A DNA stretch of 64,000 nt, from the NCBI RefSeq assembly GCF_011049865.1, contig NZ_DRGY01000100.1:11952-75951 (forward strand). The letters run 5' to 3'. The stretch comes from Marinobacter antarcticus. Its GTDB lineage: Bacteria > Pseudomonadota > Gammaproteobacteria > Pseudomonadales > Oleiphilaceae. Every line of letters begins with the position of its first letter. Positions within the stretch are counted from its first letter, which is position 1. Below, piece by piece: positions 50,265 to 61,365 of the stretch. The notes under the pieces are model-generated. The model saw only the letters and a list, made by a program, of their open reading frames with translations. It ran no database searches and was not told the origin of the DNA. The position numbers and the translations under genes were made by a program.

Positions 50265-50651
50265 TCAGTTATCGAGTGATTCCAGAATCGGGCATCCGTC
50301 CGGGCTTGCGCCACAACGGTTCGTGAGTAGTCGCAACTCATCCCGAAGCCGCCCGAGCTCTTCCAGATGAAGCTCAATGTCCGTCAGCTTCTGAAACGCT
50401 AGTGAGCGTACCTGTGGTCGGGCTGCTTGAGGATTTTCCCGGAAATTGAGGAGCGCTGAGATCTCCGCCAGGCTAAAACCCATTTTTTGGGCACGCTTGA
50501 TAAAGCCCAAGCGTGACAGATCTTTATCGCTATATTGTCGAACACCAGCGGTGTTGCGATAAACCCGGGGTAACAAGTTGATTTTTTCGTAATAGCGCAG
50601 CGTATCGGCACTGATATCGAGTTGTTCCGTAACCTTACCAATCTGAAGCAT
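50265..50651 (-). CDS. cueR: MerR-family metal sensor, CueR-like
   Basis: DTLRYYEK, RAQKMGFSL, C-terminal CGASPDGC. No Cys at the start of the dimerisation helix, which points to monovalent-metal selectivity. Confidence 0.75.
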   Translation of the reverse strand: MLQIGKVTEQLDISADTLRYYEKINLLPRVYRNTAGVRQYSDKDLSRLGFIKRAQKMGFSLAEISALLNFRENPQAARPQVRSLAFQKLTDIELHLEELGRLRDELRLLTNRCGASPDGCPILESLDN

Positions 50652-50689: not shown

Positions 50690-53119
50690 TTAAGTTCTAT
50701 CACCCACGCTCGCCACTGCATCGAAAAACATGCCCGGTCGCTGCCATAGCGAATTGATAAAAATAACGGTGACGCTGGTGGCCATTGCAACCATCGCCCA
50801 GACCGGATAGATCAACCCGGTGGTCGCCAGGGGAATGCCAATGCCGTTGAACAAAAAGGCAAGACTCACGTTCTGCAGCATCTTGCGATACCCCCAACGG
50901 CTAATTTCCCAAGCCGTAATGACGGCGCCCAAACGCCCGTTGAGAATAATGATGTCGGCAGAGTCGATGGCAATATCCGTGCCGCTGCCCATAGCGATGC
51001 CAACATCGGCCTGCATCAGTGCCGGAGCATCATTGATACCGTCGCCGACCATCGCGACTCGCGACTGTCGTTGCATCTCACGCAGGACTTCAGCTTTGTC
51101 TGCAGGCAGTACGCTAGCATATACCTCGTTGATGCCGGCACGCTCTGCAATGTGGCGGGCGGTGCGCTCGTTGTCACCCGTAAGCATGGCAGTGCGGATG
51201 CCGAGTTCGTGGAGTTGGCTGATGGTTTCAATGGTATCAACGCGAAGAGCGTCGCCAAGGGCGATCGCACCAAGCAGACGATTATCATGGGCAACGACAA
51301 TCACCGTATGGCCCTGCTGTTCGGCAGTTTCCACACTTTGGGCCAATGCGCTCAGGTCGATACCTTGTGATTTCAGGAACGCCGGACTGCCAACCCAGAC
51401 AGTCTCACCATCAACCTGCGCTTTCACGCCGCGACCGGACTCGGCCTGAAAATCCTCCACGTCGGGGAAGTTCACCCCGGCCTCCAGCGCTTTTTCGACC
51501 ACCGCCCGGCCCAGTGGATGCTCAGACGCCGCCTCCACCGCGGCGGTGATAGCCAGCAAGTTGTTCTCATCGCCGTCGATACTGATAACAGACCGCACGG
51601 CGGGCCGACCTTCAGTGAGCGTGCCTGTTTTGTCGAACACGATCGTATCGACCGTGCGCAGCGCCTGAAAAGCTTCACCGGTGCGCATCAACACGCCCTT
51701 GTCCGCGGCCTCACCCGCAGCCCTTACAATCGACAGCGGTGCGGAGATACCGACCGCACATGGATAACCCATAACAAGTACCGTCAATGCGGCAAACACG
51801 GCACGCTGGAACAGGGGCTCGGCCCCAAATAACCAAAGCCCCAAGGTCCAGGCCAGAAAAGCCAGGATCGAGATGATCAAAACAGTGGGCGTATAAACCT
51901 GCAGCACACGATCCACGATATGCAGCAGGCCGGGTTTGAGGGCTCGCGCATCTTCTACGCTGCTGATCACCTGATGCAGAAAGCTTTCGGTACCGACCGC
52001 AGTGACCCGGATCAACAGCGTACCGTTGCCATTGATCGCTCCGCCCACAACGGTATCGTCCGTCGATTTGTCCACCGGCAGCGACTCGCCGGTAATCAGC
52101 GCTTCGTCCACGGCGGAGGAACCACTGATAACAACACCGTCAACCGGGATCCGCTCGCCGGGTCGCACCCGCACCTGCATACCGGATGCCACTTGCTCTA
52201 CCGGCAGATCCCGTTCGTCATCTTCTGTAACCACGTGTGCCGTGTTGGGTTGCAAATCCAGCAATCGTTTAACCGATTGTGCACTGCGCGTTTTCACGAT
52301 CAGCGATAACCATTCGGAGAATATATGGTAGGTAAGCACCATCACTGACACCGCAAAAAACGCGGCAGTGGGATAACCTTCAGGCTGAAGAACGAGCCCG
52401 ATGCCGCCACCTGTCAGTCCCGCGAAGGCCCCGATCTCCACCAGCACATGCTGGTTGAGAATACCTCGCCGTAGCGCCTGTACCCCCATAATCAACATAT
52501 GCCTGGCAACGCCGAACATGATACCCAGTGCGAGTACAGCGACCAGTAAGGGCTCGAACCCGGTGAGCACGCCACTGGCACGCAAAGCGAATAAGGCGAC
52601 CCCGCCCGCAGCCAGGCCGACGCTACCGGCCAGTGCGGCGGCGGTACCCTGGCCACGCAGAACCGCATAACCAAACCCGACCAGGCTGACATAGACCACG
52701 ACTGAGAGCGCGAGAGTCCAGATGCTTGTGACATCAACAATGAGTCCCACTGATGCCAGGCTCATCGCGAGCGCGACCACGAAGCGCTTGCGCTCGACGG
52801 CCAGCGCTTTCTCCTGCCGTTCGAAGGGTTCTACCTTGCGTGGGTCGCTCAGGGTATAACCGATCTGTTGCAGCGTCCCCATCAGATCCTTGGCATTAGC
52901 CTGAGCACTGTCGTATTCCACGAGCGCTTGCTCATGGGTCAGGCTCACCGCGACGCGTTTTACGCCGGGCTTGCTACTTAGCGCCCGCTCAATAGTGCCG
53001 GTACACAGTGAGCAGTGCAGTCCGCCAATATGGGCCCTTACGCGGTTGATTCCTTGACGATCAGTTGCCTCTTCGCTCCATGGTGTGAACTCGTCTGAAC
53101 GGGTTGTGACATATGTCAT
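50690..53119 (-). CDS. Heavy-metal P1B-type ATPase with a non-canonical YPC motif
   Basis: GLHCSLC metal-binding domain, TGES, GYPCAVG, DKTGT, SEHP, GDGIND; TM segments LFNG and MATSV. Confidence 0.92.
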
Positions 53120-53155: not shown

Positions 53156-53803
53156 TCAAAGCGCCAAGGTGATGGACCAAAGCCCCAGTGCTATCAGTAC
53201 CACACCGGTCCAGCGCGGCATGCGTCCGGCAAGCCCCGCAATCGCGGTCAGCAGACGGCGCCCGGAGCGCAAAAAAACGGCCAGTATGAGAGGGCTGGAA
53301 AGCGCCAGACCAAAAACGAATAACGACAAAGCGCCGTAGGCGACTCCAACGCCCGCCGCTGCCTGAGCAGCCGCATCGCCCAGCAGCACCGCCAGTAACG
53401 GCGCCGCACACGCCGGGACATTCAGGCCGAACACAGCCCCAAGGCTGGCACCGCCGGCCTTGTGTGAAACGTGGGGCAGTAGCCGATTCATTTGCCGAAT
53501 CATCCAGGGTGCGCCACCAGCGAGATAAACCAGACCCAGCAGAACGTATACGCTGCCGAGCACGCCCCATAAACCTTCCTGCACACCTAGAAAACGCGAG
53601 CCAATGATGGCGGCAAGTACGCCGAGCAGACCCGTGAACGTGGCCCGGACAAGGGTGTAAACCAGAGTCTGAATTCGCCGTTGCCTTGGCGACAATCGAT
53701 CCAGATATTTCAGCAAGATCAGATGACTGCCAACGGAACACGGTTCGACGAAGCCCAAAAGCCCGAGCCCTGTCGCCAAAATCAGGCTTTGTAACAGGTC
53801 CAT
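53156..53803 (-). CDS. CcdA/DsbD-like membrane thiol-disulfide transporter
   Basis: Six TM segments with two membrane Cys in VEPCSVG and NVPACAAP. Confidence 0.75.
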   Translation of the reverse strand: MDLLQSLILATGLGLLGFVEPCSVGSHLILLKYLDRLSPRQRRIQTLVYTLVRATFTGLLGVLAAIIGSRFLGVQEGLWGVLGSVYVLLGLVYLAGGAPWMIRQMNRLLPHVSHKAGGASLGAVFGLNVPACAAPLLAVLLGDAAAQAAAGVGVAYGALSLFVFGLALSSPLILAVFLRSGRRLLTAIAGLAGRMPRWTGVVLIALGLWSITLAL

Positions 53804-53808
53804 GCTGC

Positions 53809-54027
53809 TTAACTCTCCGTGGGGGATGCCTTATAACCGGCTGCTCGCAAAGCCTCGGCCAATGTCTCGGCTGAAACCTGGTCAGCGTCATGCGCAATAC
53901 GTGCCTGTTTAGAGTCCAGAGACACTGAGCAGCCGTTAACGCCGACCTGTTGTTCCAGCAGGTGTTGAACGACCTGCACGCAGCCGTCGCAGTGCATGCC
54001 GTCGATAGACAATATCGTGGTTTTCAT
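53809..54027 (-). CDS. copZ: HMA-domain copper chaperone
   Basis: GMHCDGC; 72 aa. Confidence 0.88.
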   Translation of the reverse strand: MKTTILSIDGMHCDGCVQVVQHLLEQQVGVNGCSVSLDSKQARIAHDADQVSAETLAEALRAAGYKASPTES

Positions 54028-54086: not shown

Positions 54087-54117
54087 ACGATACGACCTTG
54101 AGTTAACTCCAGGTCAA
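54087..54117 (-). promoter_or_regulatory. MerR/CueR-type promoter for copZ-ccdA-ATPase-cueR
   Basis: TTGACC-19 bp-TATCGT with dyad ACCTGGAGTT/AACTCAAGGT. Confidence 0.85.
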
Positions 54118-54173
54118 GGAGTTTTTTTGGGGGGAGAATTAGCGGTCATTTTTGCTTTAATAGCTATCCGCCC

Positions 54174-54204
54174 TTGACCTGGACTGAACTCCAACATCTA
54201 GGCT
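54174..54204 (+). promoter_or_regulatory. MerR/CueR-type promoter for the DUF4396 operon
   Basis: TTGACC-19 bp-TAGGCT; left half-site ACCTGGA as at 54087-54117. Confidence 0.7.
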
Positions 54205-54372
54205 GGTTCCGGTTCTGCTTCATCAATTGCACCAATCAGAGACCACCTCGATCACTGGGGTGGCCAATACATTGACCCGGAATGGAAGGCTATTCTGCGT
54301 GAAACACAGTTCTGCGCTTTTACGGATCAATCAACCCGTGTTCAGAATACGGATATTCAAAAGGAGATTGTT

Positions 54373-55086
54373 GTGACAATACCGCTATGGCTGATAACAC
54401 TTTCATGGTCCGTTACTGGCATCGGCCTGCTTTGTGCTGGAGTGATCCTTGCCGATATCTATCGCGGTGGCTACCGGCAGTCCATGAAAAGCTGGGAGGC
54501 GGTGTGGCCGATTACAGCTATCTATGCCGGTCCGCTGGCGCTTTGGGCTTATTACCGATGGGGGCGTCCGGCTACCCCGCGATGGCAGCAGCAACATGGC
54601 GCGTCTCCACAAATGGGTTTGGGAGAAACCGCTGCCATTGAGACGATCCCCGGCGGCGCGGCTTCGTTTATTGGCCATCTGATTGCCGTGCCGATCGTGG
54701 TGGGCACCGGCGTGACGATCGCCGGCAAAGGCGTGTGGCCGATGATTCTGCTGATTGCCGTATTCGCGCTGCCGCTGTTGATTGCCTTCGAATACCGGTC
54801 GCTGACCCAAGCGGGCGAGATCCGTTCGGCCGGATTGCGGCTGCGGGTGGCGCTGAAAATATCGGTGCTGGCGATTCTCGCCTTCGATACCGGTATGGGC
54901 GCCGCGATGCTGATCGTGGCGTTTGTGCTGGGCTACCCGCCCACCTCGATCGCGTTCTGGTTCGTCATGTGGGGCGGGCTGCTGCTGGGTTTTATGACTG
55001 CCTATCCGGTGGTGCGCTGGCTGCTTGGGCAGGTGTCACGACGCCGGCCGAGTCGGGATAGGACTCAGGCTAGCGGCAGTATGTGA
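54373..55086 (+). CDS. DUF4396-family membrane protein
   Basis: WEAVWPITAIYAGP, Met-rich C-terminus 'GMGAAM...FWFVMW...GFMTAYPV'. Confidence 0.78.
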   Translation: MTIPLWLITLSWSVTGIGLLCAGVILADIYRGGYRQSMKSWEAVWPITAIYAGPLALWAYYRWGRPATPRWQQQHGASPQMGLGETAAIETIPGGAASFIGHLIAVPIVVGTGVTIAGKGVWPMILLIAVFALPLLIAFEYRSLTQAGEIRSAGLRLRVALKISVLAILAFDTGMGAAMLIVAFVLGYPPTSIAFWFVMWGGLLLGFMTAYPVVRWLLGQVSRRRPSRDRTQASGSM

Positions 55087-55167
55087 GCCAGTCCTGACCG
55101 GCTACGGATTTATACATCAGGGGCTCAAGGATTTGATATGACTCATTCCCTAAATGGAGAGAAAACC

Positions 55168-55764
55168 ATGCGTACACGTCATTTTTTGGCTATGTCGGCA
55201 ACCGCCTTACTGTTGGCGGGTTGTGCCAGCTCGAATACCAATCACGAATCTGCATCGCCCTCCGAAGACTTATCGATGCCTGACTCAGACTTGATCAAGA
55301 ACGCACTGAGTGCAGCGCCCGCAGATGTCGCCAAATACGCCACCGTAAAAACAATGGATGGCAGGGTATTACGCAAGGGCAGCAACGGCTGGGTGTGTCT
55401 CCCGGACCACGCCGCCGAACCGGGAAACAGCCCCAGATGCCTTGATCCATCCTATCAAGGCTTTATAAAGGCTTACATGCAAAAGACGGAACCCCATACC
55501 GACCGGGTCGGCTTCGGGTATATGTTGCAAGGCGGAAAACCAGGTAGCGATACCAATCCACTCGCCCAGGGCCCGAAGGACAAAGGCGTGTGGCAATCAG
55601 ACCCCCGCCCGCCTCATATTATGGTGGTGGTACCCGACAGCAAGGACCTGAAGGGACTGCCAACCGATTCAGGCGGGGCTGGCCCCTGGGTTATGTGGTC
55701 GGGAACACCGTATGCGCACATCATGATTCCGCTGGCAGGGAACGGGGATTTGAGCAAGATCTGA
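55168..55764 (+). CDS. Uncharacterised lipoprotein
   Basis: Lipobox LAGC; GWVCLPD...PRCLD, GYMLQGG, PHIMV, VMWSGTPYAHIMIP. Confidence 0.78.
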   Translation: MRTRHFLAMSATALLLAGCASSNTNHESASPSEDLSMPDSDLIKNALSAAPADVAKYATVKTMDGRVLRKGSNGWVCLPDHAAEPGNSPRCLDPSYQGFIKAYMQKTEPHTDRVGFGYMLQGGKPGSDTNPLAQGPKDKGVWQSDPRPPHIMVVVPDSKDLKGLPTDSGGAGPWVMWSGTPYAHIMIPLAGNGDLSKI

Positions 55765-55846
55765 TCGAATAGGGACTGACACCGATTGATGCCACATCGT
55801 GCGTCGTAGGAATCAGCCCTATGTACTGATAAAAGGAGAATAACAC

Positions 55847-55877
55847 TTGAACTTCCAGTTGCTGGAAGCTTTAACGT
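55847..55877 (+). promoter_or_regulatory. CueR-type promoter for the mini-MerR/GGCT operon
   Basis: TTGAAC-19 bp-TAACGT with perfect dyad CTTCCAG-ttg-CTGGAAG. Confidence 0.82.
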
Positions 55878-55905
55878 GGTACCTAAAATGAAAGAGGTGA
55901 TCCCT

Positions 55906-56100
55906 ATGAAAGGTGAGACGCTAATCCATCAGGCACTCGAGCGGCATCTCCCGGCCATTGAAGAGCATATCCAGCATTTACTCGGTCTACGCACCGTAAT
56001 CCATAGCCTGTTGTCGCACGAGCACACGAGTTGCGACAGGGGCGAATGCGCTTGTGTCGGCTGCCAGGCGCGGCGTGCCACCCAAGGGGCAGCGTCGTGA
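55906..56100 (+). CDS. 64-aa protein resembling a MerR C-terminal dimerisation helix plus Cys/His cluster
   Basis: GAGGTG RBS; ALERHLPAIEEHIQHLLGLRTVIHSLL-SHEHTSCDRGECACVGC; GTGA overlap with the next gene. Confidence 0.6.
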   Translation: MKGETLIHQALERHLPAIEEHIQHLLGLRTVIHSLLSHEHTSCDRGECACVGCQARRATQGAAS

Positions 56101-56627
56101 ACCCGCTGCTTTGGTCGCTTGTTCGTCAACTGATCCGGCTTCGCCGTGGCCGCCAGCCGCCGGCTTCTCTACAGGAGCCGGTGTGGTACTTCGCCTACGG
56201 TTCGAACATGAATGAGCGGCTTTTTCGCAAGCGCCGGCACATGGTTTGGCAGGACGCCCGGGTCGCGCGGCTCGATGGGTATCGCTTGGTCTTCAGTCGT
56301 GCCGGCGGCCGGTATCCCGGGCTCTCGGCGCCGGCCAACATCGTCGAGGCGCCTGGCGAGAGCGTCTACGGTGTACTCTACCTTCTACCGCCGCGCAAAT
56401 TCGCGCGCCTCGACAACAGCGAAGGCAAGCAGTATGCCTACGTCTGGGCCGACGTGGAGGACGCCGAGGGCCAACGGACTCCGGCAATGACTTATAAGGT
56501 GGCGGATGCTGTTCCCGAGGGTCAGCCCAGCCAGCAGTACCTCGGCCTCCTTCGCGAGGCTGCGCGCCAGCGTGGGCTGCCGGATAACTACAGGGCTTTT
56601 CTCGACCGCGTAGAGGCCCGAGAGTGA
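56097..56627 (+). CDS. Gamma-glutamylcyclotransferase-like protein 1
   Basis: VWYFAYGSNM, ANIV...VYGVLY, LDNSEG, PSQQYL. Confidence 0.85.
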   Translation: MNPLLWSLVRQLIRLRRGRQPPASLQEPVWYFAYGSNMNERLFRKRRHMVWQDARVARLDGYRLVFSRAGGRYPGLSAPANIVEAPGESVYGVLYLLPPRKFARLDNSEGKQYAYVWADVEDAEGQRTPAMTYKVADAVPEGQPSQQYLGLLREAARQRGLPDNYRAFLDRVEARE

Positions 56628-57691
56628 CGCCTTCGCCAGAAGAAGCGGAGTATACAAAGAAGCAGAGTAACGGCCGGTGGCGGCGATGGGGCCCCTGGAT
56701 TGGCGGCATCATCGGCATAGCGGCGCTACTCTGGGTGTTTGGCCGGATCGACTATGACCGTTTTCTGGCGATGCTTGCCGGGGCCAATCTTGGGTTTTTG
56801 CTGATGGTGCCGGCAGCGATGGCATGCGAGCAACTTCTAAGGGCGTGGAAATGGCGCCAGTTGCTGTACCCGATCCGGCCCGTCGGACCTTTCCACCTTT
56901 TCGGCGCTATCATGGGCGGCTATTTCGCCAACCTGATCATTCCCATCGGCGCGAGTCCTGTCGTGCGTTCCTGGCTCGTTGCCCGTCGTCAGGGCTTGTC
57001 GACAAGTTCTGTACTTGCCACCGTGGCGATTGATCGCGTGATCGACGGCATTGTCTTCACCGGCTTTGTTCCGGTCGTATTAATCCTCATGGCGGTGCCT
57101 GATCCCACCGGTGCCATCAGCGCCGGGTTGAGCTGGGGCGCCGGCGGCAGTTTCATTCTGCTTGTTCTGCTGCTGCTCGGCTTGGCCCGCTATCGGCTAC
57201 ACGCGCAGCACGGCACCGGCTGGCTGGGTTGGTGCGTCGATCGTCTGCCCCGTCGCCTTGTCGCCCCCGCACGCCGATTCGCCCGCTCGTTCGCCGTGGG
57301 CATTGTGTGGCCGCAGGAACAATGGCGACGCGTGGGAATTGTGCTGGCCAGCGTCGTCAGCAAGCTCATCGCCGCAACTCATTTCCTCTGGGCAGGGCTG
57401 GCGATCGGCGTCCTGCTGCAGCCCGTGGAGTATTTGTTCCTACTGGTAGTCTTCGGCTTTCTCGCCGTTGTCACTCACTTCGCCCGTATCACCGCAGGTT
57501 TCACAGTCGGCGCCGTGTTCGCCCTCGGAGTGCTGGGCCTGAGCGAGGAGCAGGCGCTTGCCATGGTGCTGACCGTTCAGGTCGCGAACATGCTGACCGT
57601 GACAGTCATCGGCGCACCGGTCCTGTGGCTAAGGAATGTCTCTCTTAGGGAGTTGCGGGCGGTGGGGGATAATGATGCCCGCTGCGGCTGA
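56624..57691 (+). CDS. Lysylphosphatidylglycerol-synthase TM-domain (UPF0104) membrane protein
   Basis: LRAWKWRQLL, GYFANLIIP, AIDRVIDG. Confidence 0.8.
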   Translation: MTPSPEEAEYTKKQSNGRWRRWGPWIGGIIGIAALLWVFGRIDYDRFLAMLAGANLGFLLMVPAAMACEQLLRAWKWRQLLYPIRPVGPFHLFGAIMGGYFANLIIPIGASPVVRSWLVARRQGLSTSSVLATVAIDRVIDGIVFTGFVPVVLILMAVPDPTGAISAGLSWGAGGSFILLVLLLLGLARYRLHAQHGTGWLGWCVDRLPRRLVAPARRFARSFAVGIVWPQEQWRRVGIVLASVVSKLIAATHFLWAGLAIGVLLQPVEYLFLLVVFGFLAVVTHFARITAGFTVGAVFALGVLGLSEEQALAMVLTVQVANMLTVTVIGAPVLWLRNVSLRELRAVGDNDARCG

Positions 57692-58472
57692 GCCCAAGCG
57701 TCGGTTCCGGCGGCTGCCGTTTTACATGTTCGGCGCCTTCGGGCGCGTGCTGTGCCTGGCCGGAGTGGCGACCCTGGTTGCGCTCGCAGGCGACTCGGCC
57801 GGGACTTTTGCCATTGCGGGTTTTTTTGTGCTCTGGACAATATATGCCTTTGTCAGCGGCGTTGTTGCCGTGCCCTATAACGACATCGTGGCACGCTCGA
57901 TAGAGTCGGGGAAACGCAGCCGTATGTTAGCGCTGCGATTTTTCGGCGGCGGACTGCTGGCTCTCGGTGTGGCTGCCATTGCCGGGCGATTGCTTGAGGT
58001 GCTCACGTTCTCCGAAGGGTATGCTGCGATATTGATCGTCGGGGCTCTACTGCTGCTGATCTCAACCCTGTCTTTTGTTTCTGCTGGCGAACCACAGACC
58101 CCTTTACCGGCTGAACACACTGGCGGCTTTGTTGAGTTTCTGAAGAGTGGCGTGGAGGTTTTCCGCCGCGACCAACGCTTTCGGTTGTTTCTCTACTCGC
58201 GCTGGGCCGCCGGTATGGTCGCCATGGCCTTGCCCTTCTACATTCTGCAGGTGATAGCAGTACAGGCTTCGAGCTCACAGGTCGCCTTTCTATTGGGTGC
58301 GCAGACCACCGGCGCGCTGCTCTCCAACCCGCTTTGGGGCTGGTGGGGGGACGTACGCGGCAAGCACAGCCTGCTGGAGGGCGTGGCCGTGATAGGTGCA
58401 TTGGCGCCCCTGCTGCAGTTCTTTCTTGTTCGCCGTCTGCGCAATGTCCCGATAAAGGAGAGCTACCCGTGA
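57672..58472 (+). CDS. MFS-like permease, short and probably internally deleted
   Basis: PYNDIVARSI...RSRMLALR, DQRFRLFL, WGWWGD; 266 aa with fewer than 12 TM segments. Confidence 0.6.
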   Translation: MMPAAAEPKRRFRRLPFYMFGAFGRVLCLAGVATLVALAGDSAGTFAIAGFFVLWTIYAFVSGVVAVPYNDIVARSIESGKRSRMLALRFFGGGLLALGVAAIAGRLLEVLTFSEGYAAILIVGALLLLISTLSFVSAGEPQTPLPAEHTGGFVEFLKSGVEVFRRDQRFRLFLYSRWAAGMVAMALPFYILQVIAVQASSSQVAFLLGAQTTGALLSNPLWGWWGDVRGKHSLLEGVAVIGALAPLLQFFLVRRLRNVPIKESYP

Positions 58473-59026
58473 AACAAACGCGATTACGACGCTGGCTGAC
58501 GAAATCCTGGGTACTGTCCGGGCTTTACTACCGGCTGCACGGCATCCCGCTTACCGGGCGACCGACGGACGAGGTTTGGTACTTCGCCTTCGGGGCCAAC
58601 ATGCACGATAGCGCCTTTCGCGAGCGCCGCGGCATGTACCCGCTCGAGTGGCGCCCGGGACGGATTCAGGGCTATCGGCTTCGTTTCAACCTGGAGGGGA
58701 GGCCAAAAGGCAGGGCCGCCCCGGCCAATATTGCGCTCGATCCAGACGCCGAAGTCTGGGGCGTACTCTATAAAATAACCCGACGCGATTCGCTACGCCT
58801 GGATGCGAGTGAAGGTGTGCCCGGCCCCCGTTACTGGCCGATCTGGATCGAGGCCGAGGATGTCAAGGGCAACCGAATTCAGGCCGTAGCTTACATCGCC
58901 GAGGGGAAGGCGCGCGATGGTAACCCGTCGCTCCGCTATCTCACGATGCTGCGTGAGGGTGCGCGTGCACATGGGTTACCAAAGCAGTGGCTGCACTATT
59001 TGGACAACGTAAAGCCCGCAGAATGA
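58469..59026 (+). CDS. Gamma-glutamylcyclotransferase-like protein 2
   Basis: VWYFAFGANM, ANI...VWGVLY, LDASEG, PSLRYL; GTG start with AAGGAG RBS. Confidence 0.85.
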   Translation: MKQTRLRRWLTKSWVLSGLYYRLHGIPLTGRPTDEVWYFAFGANMHDSAFRERRGMYPLEWRPGRIQGYRLRFNLEGRPKGRAAPANIALDPDAEVWGVLYKITRRDSLRLDASEGVPGPRYWPIWIEAEDVKGNRIQAVAYIAEGKARDGNPSLRYLTMLREGARAHGLPKQWLHYLDNVKPAE

Positions 59027-59074
59027 GAAAGCGTGACATTTAGTATGGGCACACGCTGATTCCTTTCAAGCACT

Positions 59075-60646
59075 TCACGGTTTGCGCACTTCGTAATAGC
59101 GCATCATTCCGTTGTCCTCGTGTTCCATGTTGTGACAGTGATACAGATAGAGCCCTTTGAAATCCTTGAAGGTCAGAGCAATCCGGACCCGCTGACCGGG
59201 CATTACCAGTACGGTATCGTGCAATCCCGAGTCTACGATCCCTGCCTGAAGTTGCCGGGCGCCCCCCGCGTTGGCGTTTCGTCGGCTAATAACCGTAAAT
59301 TGCAGCCCATGTACATGCATGGGGTGGGGCATCATGGTGTCGTTGAAGAACTCCCATATCTCGGTTGCGCCCAGCGAAACGACTTCATCATCGGCGACGG
59401 TTGCACCCTCAAACTGACGGCCATTGATCGCAAAGCCCTGCATCATTTTCATACTGAGCCTGAAAGGCCGGATTCTTGTGGAGTTGTCCGGGTGCGCGAG
59501 GAAGGCCAAGTCACTGCTCAACCGGTCTGGTAACGCGGGCGCAGCCTTCCCCGGAGTGCCATTAACCACCAGGGTCAGCAATGACGTAGGCGTGTCAGAC
59601 ATATTGTTAGAGCCTCCCATCATACCGCCCATCATCTCACCCGCCCGATGCGGTTCATTGATCAACTGGATCTCGGTGCCTTGGCGATCACCCTCAAAGC
59701 TGACCCACAGGTCAACGCGCTGGGCAGGCGCCAGGGTGACGTAGGGGCGCTCTTCAGGTGCTTCCAACAGCCCGCCGCCCGTGCCAATAACGGTAACGGG
59801 GCGACCATCGCTCCAGACCAGTTTGTATATACGTGCGTTGGAGCCATTCAATATACGCAAGCGATAAGCTGTTGCTTGCACCTCTTCAACCGTCGCCGGT
59901 TTACCATTCACTAGCAAGTGATCGCCTTTGAACCCTTGCATCCGGGTCATCATCGATCCCATGCTGTCAGCGAGGTAGCTCAGTTCATTCTCGCCGGCGA
60001 AGCTGCGGTCTTGTAGCACCATGACCCGTTCCCGATCGCCCTTTGGCAAATCCAGTTCGCGCTCAGGGTCATCTTCAATAATAAGCGGGCCTGCAAGCCC
60101 GGCATAGGACTGGAAACCAACGCGTCCGCCGTCATCCCCGTGCGGGTGAGGGTGATACCAGTAAAGCCCAGCACGATCATCCACCACAAAGCCGACGGTT
60201 TTTGTAGCACCCGGTTGAATGGGAAAGCGCGGTTGGCCATCGACCTCTGGCGGCACGTGCAACCCGTGCCAGTGAACGGTCGTGTTTTCTGGAAGATGGT
60301 TTTCAATATGAATCCGGACACGCTGGCCACGGCGCAACCGTATCAATGGACCGACATAGCGGTTGTCTGAATGAGTGAGCGTGTCGCCGGGCCCCTTGAT
60401 CAGCCTGGCGGTATAACGCCAGACTTCGCTGGCAGCGCCTGGAAGGATGGGCGTTACATCCGGGCGAGCAAACAATGTCAATTCGACGTCGAAAGGGCCC
60501 TGATCAAGGCCTGATTCGTCCGCATCGGTTTCAGCGGCACCTTGCTGACAACCACTGAGTAACAGTGGTGCTGGCAGCAGCGCAAAGGTTGCCGCGCCGC
60601 CCACCGATTTTAAAAAAGTTCGACGTGCCGGAATGAAATCGCGCAT
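59075..60646 (-). CDS. Multicopper oxidase (CueO-like), Tat-exported lipoprotein
   Basis: RRTFLK plus the LSGC lipobox; HWHG, WYHPH, HPMHVH, HCHNMEHEDNGMM. Confidence 0.93.
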   Translation of the reverse strand: MRDFIPARRTFLKSVGGAATFALLPAPLLLSGCQQGAAETDADESGLDQGPFDVELTLFARPDVTPILPGAASEVWRYTARLIKGPGDTLTHSDNRYVGPLIRLRRGQRVRIHIENHLPENTTVHWHGLHVPPEVDGQPRFPIQPGATKTVGFVVDDRAGLYWYHPHPHGDDGGRVGFQSYAGLAGPLIIEDDPERELDLPKGDRERVMVLQDRSFAGENELSYLADSMGSMMTRMQGFKGDHLLVNGKPATVEEVQATAYRLRILNGSNARIYKLVWSDGRPVTVIGTGGGLLEAPEERPYVTLAPAQRVDLWVSFEGDRQGTEIQLINEPHRAGEMMGGMMGGSNNMSDTPTSLLTLVVNGTPGKAAPALPDRLSSDLAFLAHPDNSTRIRPFRLSMKMMQGFAINGRQFEGATVADDEVVSLGATEIWEFFNDTMMPHPMHVHGLQFTVISRRNANAGGARQLQAGIVDSGLHDTVLVMPGQRVRIALTFKDFKGLYLYHCHNMEHEDNGMMRYYEVRKP

Positions 60647-60677: not shown

Positions 60678-60917
60678 TCAGCTTCGCAGGAATTTGACGA
60701 GTGCCAGAATCCCGAGCACCAGCAGAGTCAAAACCAATAGGCCGGCAAGCATACAGACAATCATCATACCGCCGCCCATCATGCCGCCATCCATCATTCC
60801 ACTGCTCATCATTCCCGATTCGCCCATACGCCCAGGGCCGGATGAGGTGTCGGCAAACGCAAAAACAGAGTAAAGAGCGAGCATTAACAGTGTTGTGTAT
60901 CGGGTGAGCTTTTCCAT
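60678..60917 (-). CDS. Small Met-rich membrane protein
   Basis: Signal peptide, MGESGMMSSGMMDGGMMGGGMM, C-terminal TM segment. Confidence 0.7.
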   Translation of the reverse strand: MEKLTRYTTLLMLALYSVFAFADTSSGPGRMGESGMMSSGMMDGGMMGGGMMIVCMLAGLLVLTLLVLGILALVKFLRS

Positions 60918-60981: not shown

Positions 60982-61365
60982 TAACGTACTTTTTGACTAG
61001 CTCGAGAGACCGTGTCAATGCTCCGGTGCTCCACTTGCTGTAGCCCTGCCATTCGTTGTAGGGCAGAGATCACCCCGGCAACTAATCGTGACCGTCCAAA
61101 ACCAAAGCCAAAGTATGCTAACTCGTATCAATCTTGCGGAGCCAGGGGGTGGCGCCTGATCTGGAAAGCGAAGTAGAATCCGGTATAGTATAACAAGGCA
61201 ACACTTTGTTTGTGAGAAGGTTTAACGGGAGTGATTCATGTTTCGGGGAATACACTCTATAGGTTTGAATATTTCAAATAATATGCTTTACTATTACGCG
61301 CTGAACTAAATCAACAACGCCTCCGCGAATACGCGGAGCACTAACGTCAGGGAAGTAATATAACA

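What the first reader, a model, noticed from the sequence alone, without database searches (positions are those of the whole stretch)
56097..59026. Copper-box-controlled operon with two gamma-glutamylcyclotransferase paralogs, a UPF0104 membrane protein and an MFS permease
Seen: five overlapping genes, visibly GC-richer than the flanks; both GGCTs keep YF(A)(Y/F)GxNM and the LDxxEG catalytic Glu. Known: GGCT/ChaC-fold enzymes cleave gamma-glutamyl compounds such as glutathione, the main cytoplasmic Cu(I) ligand. Inference: an undescribed copper response that breaks down or exports Cu-glutathione or gamma-glutamyl-modified envelope components.
Basis: partly seen in the sequence, partly recalled or inferred. 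Interest (0 to 1): 0.62.

Follow-up and report, generated by a model that had tools for sequence, protein, structure and literature searches.

The report
Eroded metal-island gamma-glutamyl cleavage operon
This is a real, horizontally acquired operon from a widespread, undescribed bacterial module that sits in mercury and copper resistance islands, but this copy has lost its sensor's DNA-binding half and a third of its MFS transporter, and its "copper box" is the operator of that lost sensor, not a CueR site.

Summary
Five translationally coupled genes lie at 55906-59026, at 61.7% GC against 53-56% in the flanks. Both GGCT paralogs keep YGSN/FGAN and the catalytic Glu.

About 130 related loci share one module: MerR-family sensor (~165 aa, Cys-rich), tiny Cys protein, GGCT-A, MprF-type flippase-like protein, MFS and GGCT-B. 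Soft-metal genes lie nearby in 18 of 27 operon loci, against 0 of 35 stand-alone GGCT-B loci.

The metal link points to mercury at least as much as copper:
- Several relatives carry canonical merO/MerR.
- Every adjacent P1B-ATPase has YPC in place of CPC.

The window's palindrome is this sensor family's own operator. It is seen in 16 locus records (about 11 distinct loci) and differs from the island's three CueR-like boxes.

In this window the sensor is a 64-aa stump with no HTH, and no intact copy exists in the genome. The MFS has lost 63 and 91 aa in frame. Two near-identical metagenome variants carry different deletions, yet both GGCTs stay under purifying selection (dN/dS about 0.2).

The likely function is cytoplasmic cleavage of gamma-glutamyl thiols or their conjugates during soft-metal stress. 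That function is unproven.

The parts
55847..55877 (+). MerR-type promoter: TTGAAC, 19-nt spacer, TAACGT. It contains the perfect dyad CTTCCAGttgCTGGAAG (55852-55868). This is the operator of the reg165 regulator family.
   Evidence: The same box lies in front of full-length regulators or the GGCT operon in 16 locus records, about 11 distinct loci. It is the only such site in the genome.
55906..56100 (+). 64-aa remnant of the operon's MerR-family sensor. It keeps the first 6 codons, the dimerisation helix and a Cys cluster (C-x4-C-x-C-x2-C). The HTH/wing domain and the helix-start Cys are deleted in frame.
   Evidence: Alignment to 164-173-aa regulators of L001, L002, L003, L010, L025, L051 and L054. 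No Pfam or NCBIfam hit. The only homologues of this length belong to its own lineage.
56097..56627 (+). GGCT1 (176 aa). A gamma-glutamylcyclotransferase-fold enzyme with a conserved basic N-terminal extension.
   Evidence: Pfam AIG2_2 and GGACT. Full-length alignment to human GGCT with YGSN and Glu98. dN/dS 0.20 against L047.
56624..57691 (+). UPF0104 / MprF-type flippase-like membrane protein (355 aa). It is intact in this window.
   Evidence: PF03706 at 87.7 bits. AF2 model with pLDDT 86.7. The only structural neighbours are MprF 7duw, 9j8q and 9goe, at probability 1.0 and TM 0.52-0.55. No conserved Cys, His or Met, but many invariant charged residues.
57672..58472 (+). MFS remnant (266 aa, against 419 aa in the 98%-identical P0003). 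It has two in-frame deletions.
   Evidence: The deletions remove TM1-2 and roughly TM10-12, and about half of the family-conserved positions.
57697..57712 (+). Junction of the 189-nt (63-codon) deletion in the MFS gene.
   Evidence: blastn against L047 and the junction sequences, with CGGCG microhomology.
58404..58415 (+). Junction of the 273-nt (91-codon) deletion in the MFS gene.
   Evidence: blastn against L047 and the junction sequences, with CCCTGCTG microhomology.
58469..59026 (+). GGCT2 (185 aa). This is the most widely conserved gene of the module.
   Evidence: Pfam. Alignment to human GGCT. Orthologues at 61-78% identity in alpha-, beta- and gammaproteobacteria. dN/dS 0.17 against L047.
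50690..53119 (-). Context: P1B-ATPase with GYPCAVG in place of CPC. This is the ATPase type that accompanies the module wherever an ATPase lies next to it.
53156..54027 (-). Context: a CcdA/DsbD_TM-like membrane protein (53156-53803) and an HMA chaperone (53809-54027). Both are recurrent partners of the YPC ATPase.
50265..50651 (-). Context: the island's CueR-like regulator (128 aa, C-x6-C loop, no Cys at the helix start).
54087..54205 (.). Context: two 19-nt-spacer promoters with a different dyad (CCTGGAG..CTCAAGG type), serving copZ (-) and DUF4396 (+). They are not the same box as at 55852.
54373..55764 (+). Context: DUF4396 and a 208-aa lipoprotein-like gene, co-directional with the operon. 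No terminator was detected before 55847, so read-through from the CueR-like promoter is possible.

Best explanation
**What it is (shown)**
- The stretch is a foreign, GC-rich, translationally coupled operon.
- It belongs to a widespread, uncharacterised proteobacterial module with this gene order: MerR-family sensor of about 165 aa ('reg165', whose site holds 3-4 Cys), a tiny Cys-rich protein, GGCT-A, an MprF-type flippase-like protein (UPF0104), an MFS and GGCT-B.
- The module lives in soft-metal islands. It sits next to mer genes or next to an HMA / CcdA-like / YPC-type P1B-ATPase set.
- The window's palindrome is reg165's own operator.

**State of this copy (shown)**
- It is an eroded derivative. 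The sensor has lost its HTH domain.
- The MFS has lost 63 and 91 residues.
- UPF0104 and both GGCTs are intact.

**How it most likely works (inferred)**
1. In intact relatives a thiophilic metal, probably Hg(II)-like, switches on reg165.
2. The two cytoplasmic GGCTs remove the gamma-glutamyl residue, as 5-oxoproline, from glutathione-type thiols or their metal or S-conjugates.
3. UPF0104 and the MFS move the conjugate or product across the inner membrane.
4. In this genome only the enzymatic half is retained. Expression would come from the unregulated promoter or from read-through from the neighbouring CueR-like-controlled promoter.
For: - **Operon anatomy:**
- **GGCT competence:**
- **UPF0104 resembles the MprF TM domain:**
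- **Family architecture over about 130 loci:**
- **Operator and regulator pairing:**
- **Metal association with an internal control:** 18/27 against 0/35.
- **merO/MerR in front of the ATPase-UPF-MFS-GGCT arrangement** (L078, L054, L023, L072).
- **The YPC ATPase always accompanies the module:**
- **Deletions:**
- **Purifying selection on the GGCTs within the beheaded lineage:** dN/dS 0.20 and 0.17.
- **No conserved Cys, His or Met in UPF0104, the MFS or the GGCTs.** This suggests they handle an organic substrate and that the metal is sensed only by the regulator.
- **Host gamma-glutamyl metabolism:** the host has gshA and ggt, and has no other AIG2_2-type GGCT.
- **Horizontal origin:** the operon is absent from 24 genomes of the same genus, and its GC is 7 points above the genome.
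Against: - No substrate, inducer or transport direction has been shown.
- The core trio UPF0104-MFS-GGCT2 also occurs in alphaproteobacterial chromosomes with no metal genes nearby (9 of 27 loci). GGCT2 orthologues also occur alone. The basic chemistry may therefore not be metal-specific.
- The only structural relatives of UPF0104 are lipid flippases, which fits a lipid substrate better than a soluble peptide.
- Expression of this copy is unverified.
- The loci are not phylogenetically independent, so the Fisher p value overstates the evidence.
Confidence: 0.5

Rival explanations
1. This is a copper-specific CueR regulon member. Cu(I)-CueR activates the box, and the operon degrades or exports Cu-glutathione.
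For: - The operon sits between copZ-ccdA-ATPase-cueR-like genes and a multicopper oxidase.
- The promoter has MerR-type architecture with a 19-nt spacer.
- From my recollection, the dyad resembles the E. coli copA CueR site (CCTTCC-N7-GGAAGG).
- No terminator separates it from the upstream CueR-like-controlled DUF4396 promoter, so copper-dependent read-through is possible.
Against: - The box differs from the three CueR-like boxes of the same island.
- The same box lies in front of reg165 or its operon in 16 locus records.
- reg165 has Cys at the helix-start position that, in established MerR-family structural work (CueR Ser77 against ZntR Cys79), separates +2 from +1 sensors.
- No other box of this type exists in the genome, and no regulator with this specificity was found there.
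- Relatives are often under merO/MerR control.
Confidence: 0.15
2. The module remodels envelope lipids. UPF0104 flips an amino-acylated or gamma-glutamylated lipid, the MFS moves the lyso- or head-group product, and membrane-associated GGCTs trim gamma-glutamyl head groups. The result changes surface charge or permeability under metal stress.
For: - The only structural neighbours of UPF0104 are MprF lipid flippases.
- UPF0104 has many invariant charged residues and no thiophilic ones.
- Both GGCTs carry conserved basic N-terminal extensions.
- All junctions are translationally coupled, which suggests a complex.
Against: - No lipid synthase or gamma-glutamyl ligase is found in any of the ~130 loci.
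- GGCT2 orthologues with the same N-terminal extension occur alone, far from any UPF0104 or MFS.
- The GGCTs stay under purifying selection in variants where UPF0104 or the MFS is broken.
- No gamma-glutamyl lipid is known to me.
Confidence: 0.15
3. In this genome the operon is a dead remnant on its way to loss, with no function.
For: - The regulator is beheaded, and no cognate regulator exists in the genome.
- The MFS has lost 154 aa.
- Sister variants carry other deletions.
- The small ORF has dN/dS of about 1.3, though this rests on only 5 substitutions.
Against: - GGCT1 and GGCT2 have dN/dS of 0.20 and 0.17 between beheaded-lineage copies.
- All five deletions in this lineage keep translation running into GGCT2. 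The chance of that is about (1/3)^5 if frame were irrelevant.
- There are no stops or frameshifts in any of the five ORFs.
Confidence: 0.2

Closest known systems
Human/animal gamma-glutamylcyclotransferase (GGCT, C7orf24; PDB 2pn7, 2i5t)
   Same: There is full-length homology (E about 2e-11). The YGSN substrate loop and the catalytic Glu98 both align.
   Different: - Only about 25-30% identical.
- Each bacterial paralog has a conserved basic extension of 25-35 aa at the N-terminus.
- They are encoded in a metal-island operon with two membrane proteins.
- The substrate is unknown.
MprF (aminoacyl-phosphatidylglycerol synthase/flippase; PDB 7duw, 9j8q, 9goe)
   Same: UPF0104 matches PF03706. Its AF2 model superposes only on the MprF membrane domain.
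   Different: - There is no synthase domain in the protein or the operon.
- About 15% identity.
- The partners are an MFS and GGCTs, not a tRNA-dependent transferase.
mer operons (MerR/merO, MerT/P, MerA)
   Same: - A MerR-family activator with a Cys triad acts on a 19-nt-spacer promoter.
- Relatives of the module lie directly behind canonical merO/MerR (L078, L054, L023, L072) or beside merTPA (L058-60, L083, L084).
- The window has its own merR-merT 4 kb downstream.
   Different: - The window's box is not merO (CTTCCAG-N3-CTGGAAG against TCCGTAC-N4-GTACGGA).
- reg165 scores below the MerR equivalog cut-off.
- No reductase or lyase chemistry is involved.
CueR regulon (copA, cueO)
   Same: - The promoter geometry matches.
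- The dyad resembles the enterobacterial CueR site, from my recollection.
- Copper genes lie on both sides.
   Different: - The cognate regulator family is not CueR. It has Cys at the helix start, a C-x5-C-x-C loop and a wing insertion.
- The island's own CueR-like boxes are different.
Gamma-glutamyl cycle / glutathione-conjugate processing (GGT, GGCT, 5-oxoprolinase; fungal GliK in gliotoxin synthesis)
   Same: The working model borrows this chemistry: a GGCT-fold enzyme removes gamma-Glu from a glutathione-derived thiol conjugate.
   Different: No such pathway is described for metal conjugates in bacteria. Nothing here was tested biochemically.

Membership tests
GGCT (C7orf24-type gamma-glutamylcyclotransferase) | Homology over the whole GGCT fold; Pfam AIG2_2/GGACT above cut-off | tested here: met
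   56.1 and 57.5 bits against a cut-off of 27; aligned to residues 9-165 of 2pn7.
GGCT (C7orf24-type gamma-glutamylcyclotransferase) | YGSN(L/M) substrate-binding loop | tested here: met
   YFAYGSNM (GGCT1) and YFAFGANM (GGCT2) align to the human YFAYGSNL. GGCT2 has Ala in place of Ser.
GGCT (C7orf24-type gamma-glutamylcyclotransferase) | Catalytic glutamate (human Glu98) | tested here: met
   LDNSEG and LDASEG align to LDEQEG.
GGCT (C7orf24-type gamma-glutamylcyclotransferase) | Release of 5-oxoproline from a gamma-glutamyl substrate | not testable with these tools
   An enzyme assay is needed.
MprF / aminoacyl-PG synthase-flippase | LPG_synthase_TM membrane domain | tested here: met
   PF03706 at 87.7 bits. 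Foldseek gives MprF only, at probability 1.0.
MprF / aminoacyl-PG synthase-flippase | C-terminal aminoacyl-tRNA-dependent synthase domain | tested here: not met
   The protein is 355 aa and is membrane domain only. No synthase gene is seen in the operon or in any related locus.
Major facilitator superfamily transporter | MFS_1 profile match | tested here: met
   34.9 bits against a cut-off of 33.4, covering only profile positions 58-286.
Major facilitator superfamily transporter | Complete 6+6 helix architecture | tested here: not met
   The window gene lacks residues 13-75 and 307-397 of the 419-aa orthologue. These cover TM1-2, about TM10-12 and the conserved YLxEISP...RPAYSxYFN block.
CueR regulon | MerR-type promoter (19-nt spacer) with a dyad operator | tested here: met
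   TTGAAC-19-TAACGT with a perfect 7+7 dyad.
CueR regulon | Operator shared with the other copper promoters controlled by the resident CueR | tested here: not met
   The copZ, DUF4396 and MCO promoters carry a CCTGGAG/CCTTGAG-type dyad. The CTTCC-N7-GGAAG promoter is unique in the genome.
CueR regulon | Cognate regulator is a Cu(I) sensor (no Cys at the helix start; C-x7-C loop) | tested here: not met
   The regulators paired with this box have GC-P at the helix start and a C-x5-C-x-C loop. They score below the CueR cut-off (67-82 bits against 147).
CueR regulon | Induction by copper | not testable with these tools
mer operon | merO (TCCGTAC-N4-GTACGGA) with a MerR that has the Cys82/117/126 pattern | tested here: not met
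   It is absent at this operon in the window. It is present in relatives L012, L023, L039, L054, L059, L072 and L078.
reg165-GGCT-UPF0104-MFS-GGCT module (undescribed; seen in this scan) | Gene order, translational coupling and the CTCCAG-N3-CTGGAG operator | tested here: met
reg165-GGCT-UPF0104-MFS-GGCT module (undescribed; seen in this scan) | Intact sensor with an HTH domain | tested here: not met
   Only a 64-aa remnant is present. There is no second copy in the genome.

The most novel reading that the evidence does not exclude
Several units may together form a MerA-independent route for mercury or other soft metals. The route would process metal-glutathione conjugates by gamma-glutamyl cleavage and export, as a bacterial counterpart of the eukaryotic gamma-glutamyl/mercapturate handling of Hg(SG)2.

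The units are:
- the GGCT / UPF0104 / MFS module;
- the YPC-type P1B-ATPase;
- the CcdA-like protein;
- the HMA chaperone;
- in relatives, a merO-driven trio of HMA, an outer-membrane barrel and an NHL propeller.

The parallel deletions in this lineage would then be a natural experiment. They would show that the transport half is costly once the sensor is lost, while the enzymatic half stays useful.
Probability: 0.25. Interest if true: 0.8.

Novelty: new variant of a known kind. Interest (0 to 1): 0.55.

Why it matters
Metal-resistance islands are thought to be well catalogued as pumps, chaperones, oxidases and reductases. This module adds a conserved enzymatic and transport unit built on gamma-glutamyl chemistry. 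It has its own sensor and operator, and it is always found beside an unclassified YPC-type P1B-ATPase. If it acts on metal-thiol conjugates, it links glutathione turnover directly to mercury and copper handling in bacteria.

This window adds two things to the family picture:
- Its 'CueR box' is really the module's own operator.
- Three sister variants each break a membrane component in frame while keeping both GGCTs under selection. That separates the roles of the enzymes and the transporters.

This eroded copy is a poor subject for experiments. Intact operons in cultured strains are better: Litchfieldella qijiaojingensis, Thalassospira profundimaris and Marinobacter gelidimuriae.

Tried and rejected
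- **Plasmid search.** Megablast of 55800-59100 against the plasmid collection gave no match.
- **Literature.** Six searches found nothing relevant. They covered GGCT with MerR, the mer operon, CueR and copper resistance, UPF0104 with copper, and a YPC P1B-ATPase.
- **Sequence search of PDB.** UPF0104 and the full-length MFS gave no hits.
- **NCBIfam.** It assigns no equivalog to any of the five genes or to reg165, and no MFS subfamily.
- **Second regulator.** I looked in the genome for an intact reg165 or another regulator that could use the box. There is none. The other MerR-family genes, on C79, C133, C49 and C39, have different loops and operators.
- **Headless MerR as a class.** I asked whether the headless form is a widespread functional class. 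Only its own lineage has it, so I treat it as a deletion product.
- **Neighbours of stand-alone GGCT2 orthologues.** I checked them for a substrate hint. The neighbours are heterogeneous: luciferase-like monooxygenase, SRAP, CoA-transferase and glyoxalase.
- **Assembly artefact.** I considered this for the deletions. It is unlikely. The junctions sit at 5-9-nt microhomologies, and different deletions occur in independent metagenome assemblies. This is still unverified at read level.


Full report
**1. Observation**

The + strand between 55.8 and 59.0 kb carries five ORFs:
- 55906-56100 (64 aa);
- 56097-56627 (176 aa);
- 56624-57691 (355 aa);
- 57672-58472 (266 aa; the ORF listing starts it at an earlier ATG, 57636);
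- 58469-59026 (185 aa).

The junctions are GTGA, GTGA, a 17-20-nt overlap, and GTGA. This is the signature of translational coupling.

GC is 61.7% in the operon, against 56.0% and 53.3% in the flanks and 54.8% for the genome.

Pfam results:
- AIG2_2 and GGACT for the second and fifth genes;
- LPG_synthase_TM (PF03706, 87.7 bits) for the third;
- a marginal, partial MFS_1 match for the fourth (34.9 bits against a cut-off of 33.4, profile positions 58-286 of 347).

Both GGCTs align end to end with human GGCT (2pn7). YFAYGSN / YFAFGAN lies on the human YGSN loop, and LDNSEG / LDASEG lies on the catalytic Glu98.

Upstream, TTGAAC-19 nt-TAACGT encloses the perfect dyad CTTCCAGttgCTGGAAG at 55852-55868.

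**2. The module is a conserved family**

I collected about 130 related loci. They came from UPF0104-based and GGCT2-based scans of one-genome-per-species contigs and from contig look-ups.

The fullest form is regulator (~165 aa, MerR family), tiny Cys-rich ORF (MCEFCGCG...), GGCT-A, UPF0104, MFS (415-436 aa) and GGCT-B. L010/L058 and L003 are examples.

- A three-gene core, UPF0104-MFS-GGCT-B, is common in Alphaproteobacteria.
- GGCT-B orthologues at 61-66% identity also occur alone.
- None of 24 other genomes of the window's genus has the operon. Together with the GC excess, this shows horizontal acquisition.

**3. The 'copper box' is the module's own operator**

In L001, L002, L003, L010, L051 and L054 a full-length regulator sits directly in front of GGCT-A. 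In L025 it sits behind GGCT-B.

Each regulator is preceded by TTGAAC-(C/T)TCCAG-N3-CTGGA(G/A)G with a 19-nt spacer. A pattern scan finds this box in 16 locus records, about 11 distinct loci. It is always in front of the regulator or the GGCT operon. L025 has it in both places.

The regulators form a distinct MerR-family group:
- a five-residue wing insertion;
- a conserved GC-P at the start of the dimerisation helix;
- a C-S-W-x-T-C-x-C loop.

They reach no NCBIfam equivalog cut-off, with best scores of 65-82 bits against cut-offs of 143-168.

From established structural work on CueR and ZntR (my knowledge, not tested here), a Cys at that helix-start position marks sensors of +2 ions, whereas CueR has Ser.

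The island's own 128-aa CueR-like regulator (50265-50651) lacks that Cys. The three other 19-nt-spacer promoters of the island carry a different dyad of CCTGGAG / CCTTGAG type. These serve copZ at 54117, DUF4396 at 54172 and the oxidase near 60985.

**4. This copy is eroded**

*The sensor.* The 64-aa ORF is what remains of the regulator. It keeps the first six codons (M-K-G-E-T-L; compare M-P-S-E-T-L in L001), then jumps in frame to the dimerisation helix. It ends in a shortened Cys cluster.

No intact homologue exists elsewhere in the genome, and the boxed promoter is unique there. Proteins of this length and sequence exist only in this lineage. I therefore read it as a deletion product, not a class of 'headless' regulators.

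*The MFS.* It is 98% identical to a 419-aa protein (P0003) from marine metagenomes. Alignment to that contig (L047) shows two in-frame deletions in the window: 189 nt and 273 nt, at CGGCG and CCCTGCTG microhomologies.

They remove TM1-2, roughly TM10-12 and about half of the positions conserved in 22 orthologues. This protein cannot be a normal 12-helix MFS.

**5. Parallel decay in sister copies**

| Variant | UPF0104 | MFS |
|---|---|---|
| Window | intact | loses 63 and 91 aa in frame |
| L047-L050 (94-99% identical DNA) | own 246-nt in-frame deletion | intact |
| L134 | C-terminal part present, as in the window | 401-nt deletion fuses residues 1-227 to the GGCT2 frame, giving a 470-aa fusion (P0045) |

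L047 and L048 carry the same 64-aa stump. The short contigs L049, L050 and L134 do not reach that gene.

All three variants break one membrane component, and all keep ribosomes running into GGCT2.

Between the window and L047, dN/dS is 0.20 for GGCT1 and 0.17 for GGCT2.

Elsewhere in the family:
- L051 has lost most of UPF0104.
- L054 has fused the tiny ORF to the UPF0104 tail, which removed GGCT-A.
- L023, L024 and L033 lack the MFS.

My inference has three parts:
- The enzymes are the selected part.
- The two membrane proteins act together.
- Without a working sensor the membrane proteins are dispensable or costly.

Five of five frame-preserving deletions in one lineage would occur by chance about 0.4% of the time.

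**6. Metal context**

I used the GGCT2-based sample as a single sampling scheme and looked within 9 kb, taking only loci of at least 8 kb.

| Locus type | With a soft-metal gene* | Total |
|---|---|---|
| Operon-type | 18 | 27 |
| Stand-alone GGCT2 | 0 | 35 |

*MerR-family regulator, HMA protein, P1B-ATPase, CcdA-like protein, MerA, MerT or multicopper oxidase.

Fisher p is 2.5e-9. The loci are not phylogenetically independent, so this overstates the evidence.

Two patterns recur.

*(a) mer genes or canonical merO.* Examples are TTGACTCCGTAC-N4-GTACGG with a MerR carrying the Cys triad, in L012, L023, L039, L054, L059, L072 and L078.

In the cultured Litchfieldella qijiaojingensis (L078) the order is merO, merR, ccdA-like, a 504-aa gene, ATPase, UPF0104, MFS and GGCT2. 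A second merO then fronts an HMA / outer-membrane-barrel / NHL-propeller trio.

*(b) An HMA / CcdA-like / P1B-ATPase set.* Every intact ATPase found beside the module carries GYPCA(V/I/L)G in place of CPC. One partial CPC-type hit lies at the contig edge of L064. The five other P1B-ATPases of the window's own genome are ACPCALG.

The window belongs to pattern (b), and its ATPase operon is wired to a CueR-like regulator. The family is thus a soft-metal module, at least as mercury-linked as copper-linked.

**7. Mechanism**

- *Membrane proteins.* UPF0104 models confidently (pLDDT 86.7). It resembles only the MprF membrane domain in the PDB. It has many invariant Asp, Glu, Arg and Lys residues and no conserved Cys, His or Met. 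The MFS family is the same in this respect.
- *Enzymes.* The GGCTs contain no Cys at all. These four proteins therefore probably handle an organic, zwitterionic substrate. The metal is recognised by the regulator and perhaps by the tiny Cys protein.
- *Substrate clues.* GGCT-B is unusually conserved across classes and also works alone. The GGCTs also stay selected when the transporters are broken. Both points indicate a common cytoplasmic gamma-glutamyl compound.
- *Host metabolism.* The host has gshA and ggt, and no other AIG2_2-type GGCT.

My best model is cytoplasmic removal of gamma-Glu, as 5-oxoproline, from glutathione-type thiols or their metal or S-conjugates. The membrane pair would move the conjugate or product. 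Only the homology, context and selection are shown. Substrate, direction and inducer are inferred.

In this genome, expression would depend on the unregulated MerR-type promoter. It could also come from read-through from the CueR-like-controlled DUF4396 promoter, since no terminator lies between them.

**8. Rivals**

- *A true CueR target.* This fits the neighbourhood and the promoter geometry. It does not fit the operator-regulator pairing seen across the family, nor the different local boxes.
- *A lipid-remodelling system.* This fits the MprF-like fold. It lacks any synthase and does not explain stand-alone GGCT-B.
- *A dead remnant.* This fits the deletions but not the purifying selection or the frame preservation.

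**9. Novelty**

No paper describing this operon, its regulator or a YPC-type P1B-ATPase was found. Earlier notes of this scan describe the same family in other genomes. I reached the architecture, the mercury link and the core trio independently from sequence.

**10. Limits**

- No biochemistry was done.
- Gene calls in related loci are partly my own crude ORF calls.
- The E. coli CueR-site resemblance, the CueR Ser77 / ZntR Cys79 rule and the merO consensus come from my own knowledge.

Noticed in passing
window 50690-53119 (-); also L001, L002, L023, L025, L026, L047, L051, L054, L057, L062, L067, L068, L074, L075, L078, L093: Every intact P1B-ATPase next to the module has GYPCA(V/I/L)G in place of the CPC transport motif. 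One partial CPC-type hit lies at the contig edge of L064. The five other P1B-ATPases of the same genome are ACPCALG. No paper on a YPC type was found. In several relatives this ATPase is driven by canonical merO/MerR, which suggests a mercury or other soft-metal pump rather than a classical Cu(I) pump.
   Followed up: partly
L078 9603-11921; L006 8880-11118; L001 2493-4740: A recurrent trio accompanies the module: an HMA protein, a Phenol_MetA_deg-type outer-membrane barrel and an NHL beta-propeller. In L078 the trio has its own merO in front. It may be an outer-envelope part of the same soft-metal system.
   Followed up: partly
L002 4478-4594, L003 5240-5452, L010 3132-3326, L051 5830-6018, L054 6745-7017: A tiny ORF starting MCE(F/L/C)C(G/D)(C/E) lies between the regulator and GGCT-A, often overlapping the regulator's stop. 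In L001 and in the window, a similar Cys motif (GCTCAGCQ / ECACVGCQ) is fused onto the regulator's tail.
   Followed up: partly
window 55071-55118 against L047 4175-5690: The window lacks a 1.5-kb segment present in the near-identical island L047. That segment carries a 408-aa MFS (Sugar_tr/MFS_1) gene between DUF4396 and the 208-aa lipoprotein-like gene. This is another deletion in this copy of the island.
   Followed up: partly
window 60678-60917 (-); L020 7066-7326: A small Met-rich membrane protein (MMSSGMMDGGMMGGGMM, then one TM helix, ending KFLRS) lies upstream of the multicopper oxidase. A look-alike sits next to UPF0104 in a Bosea mer island. It has no family assignment.
   Followed up: no
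L047 7736-7751; L134 1083-1090; window 57697-57712 and 58404-58415: Three copies that are at least 94% identical each carry a different deletion in UPF0104 or the MFS. All the deletions keep translation running into GGCT2. This suggests recurrent selection against the membrane pair after the sensor lost its DNA-binding domain.
   Followed up: yes
L012 5024-6008; window 53156-53803; L051 4465-5190; L054 5385-6110: A CcdA/DsbD_TM-like protein with two membrane Cys always accompanies the YPC ATPase. In L012 it comes with a thioredoxin-like gene inside a merA operon. It could be a thiol-based metal conduit rather than an electron carrier.
   Followed up: no
L090-L133 (many soil alphaproteobacterial MAGs): Stand-alone GGCT2 orthologues at 61-66% identity, including the N-terminal extension, lie in unrelated neighbourhoods. 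This is unusually high conservation for a GGCT-fold enzyme of unknown substrate.
   Followed up: partly
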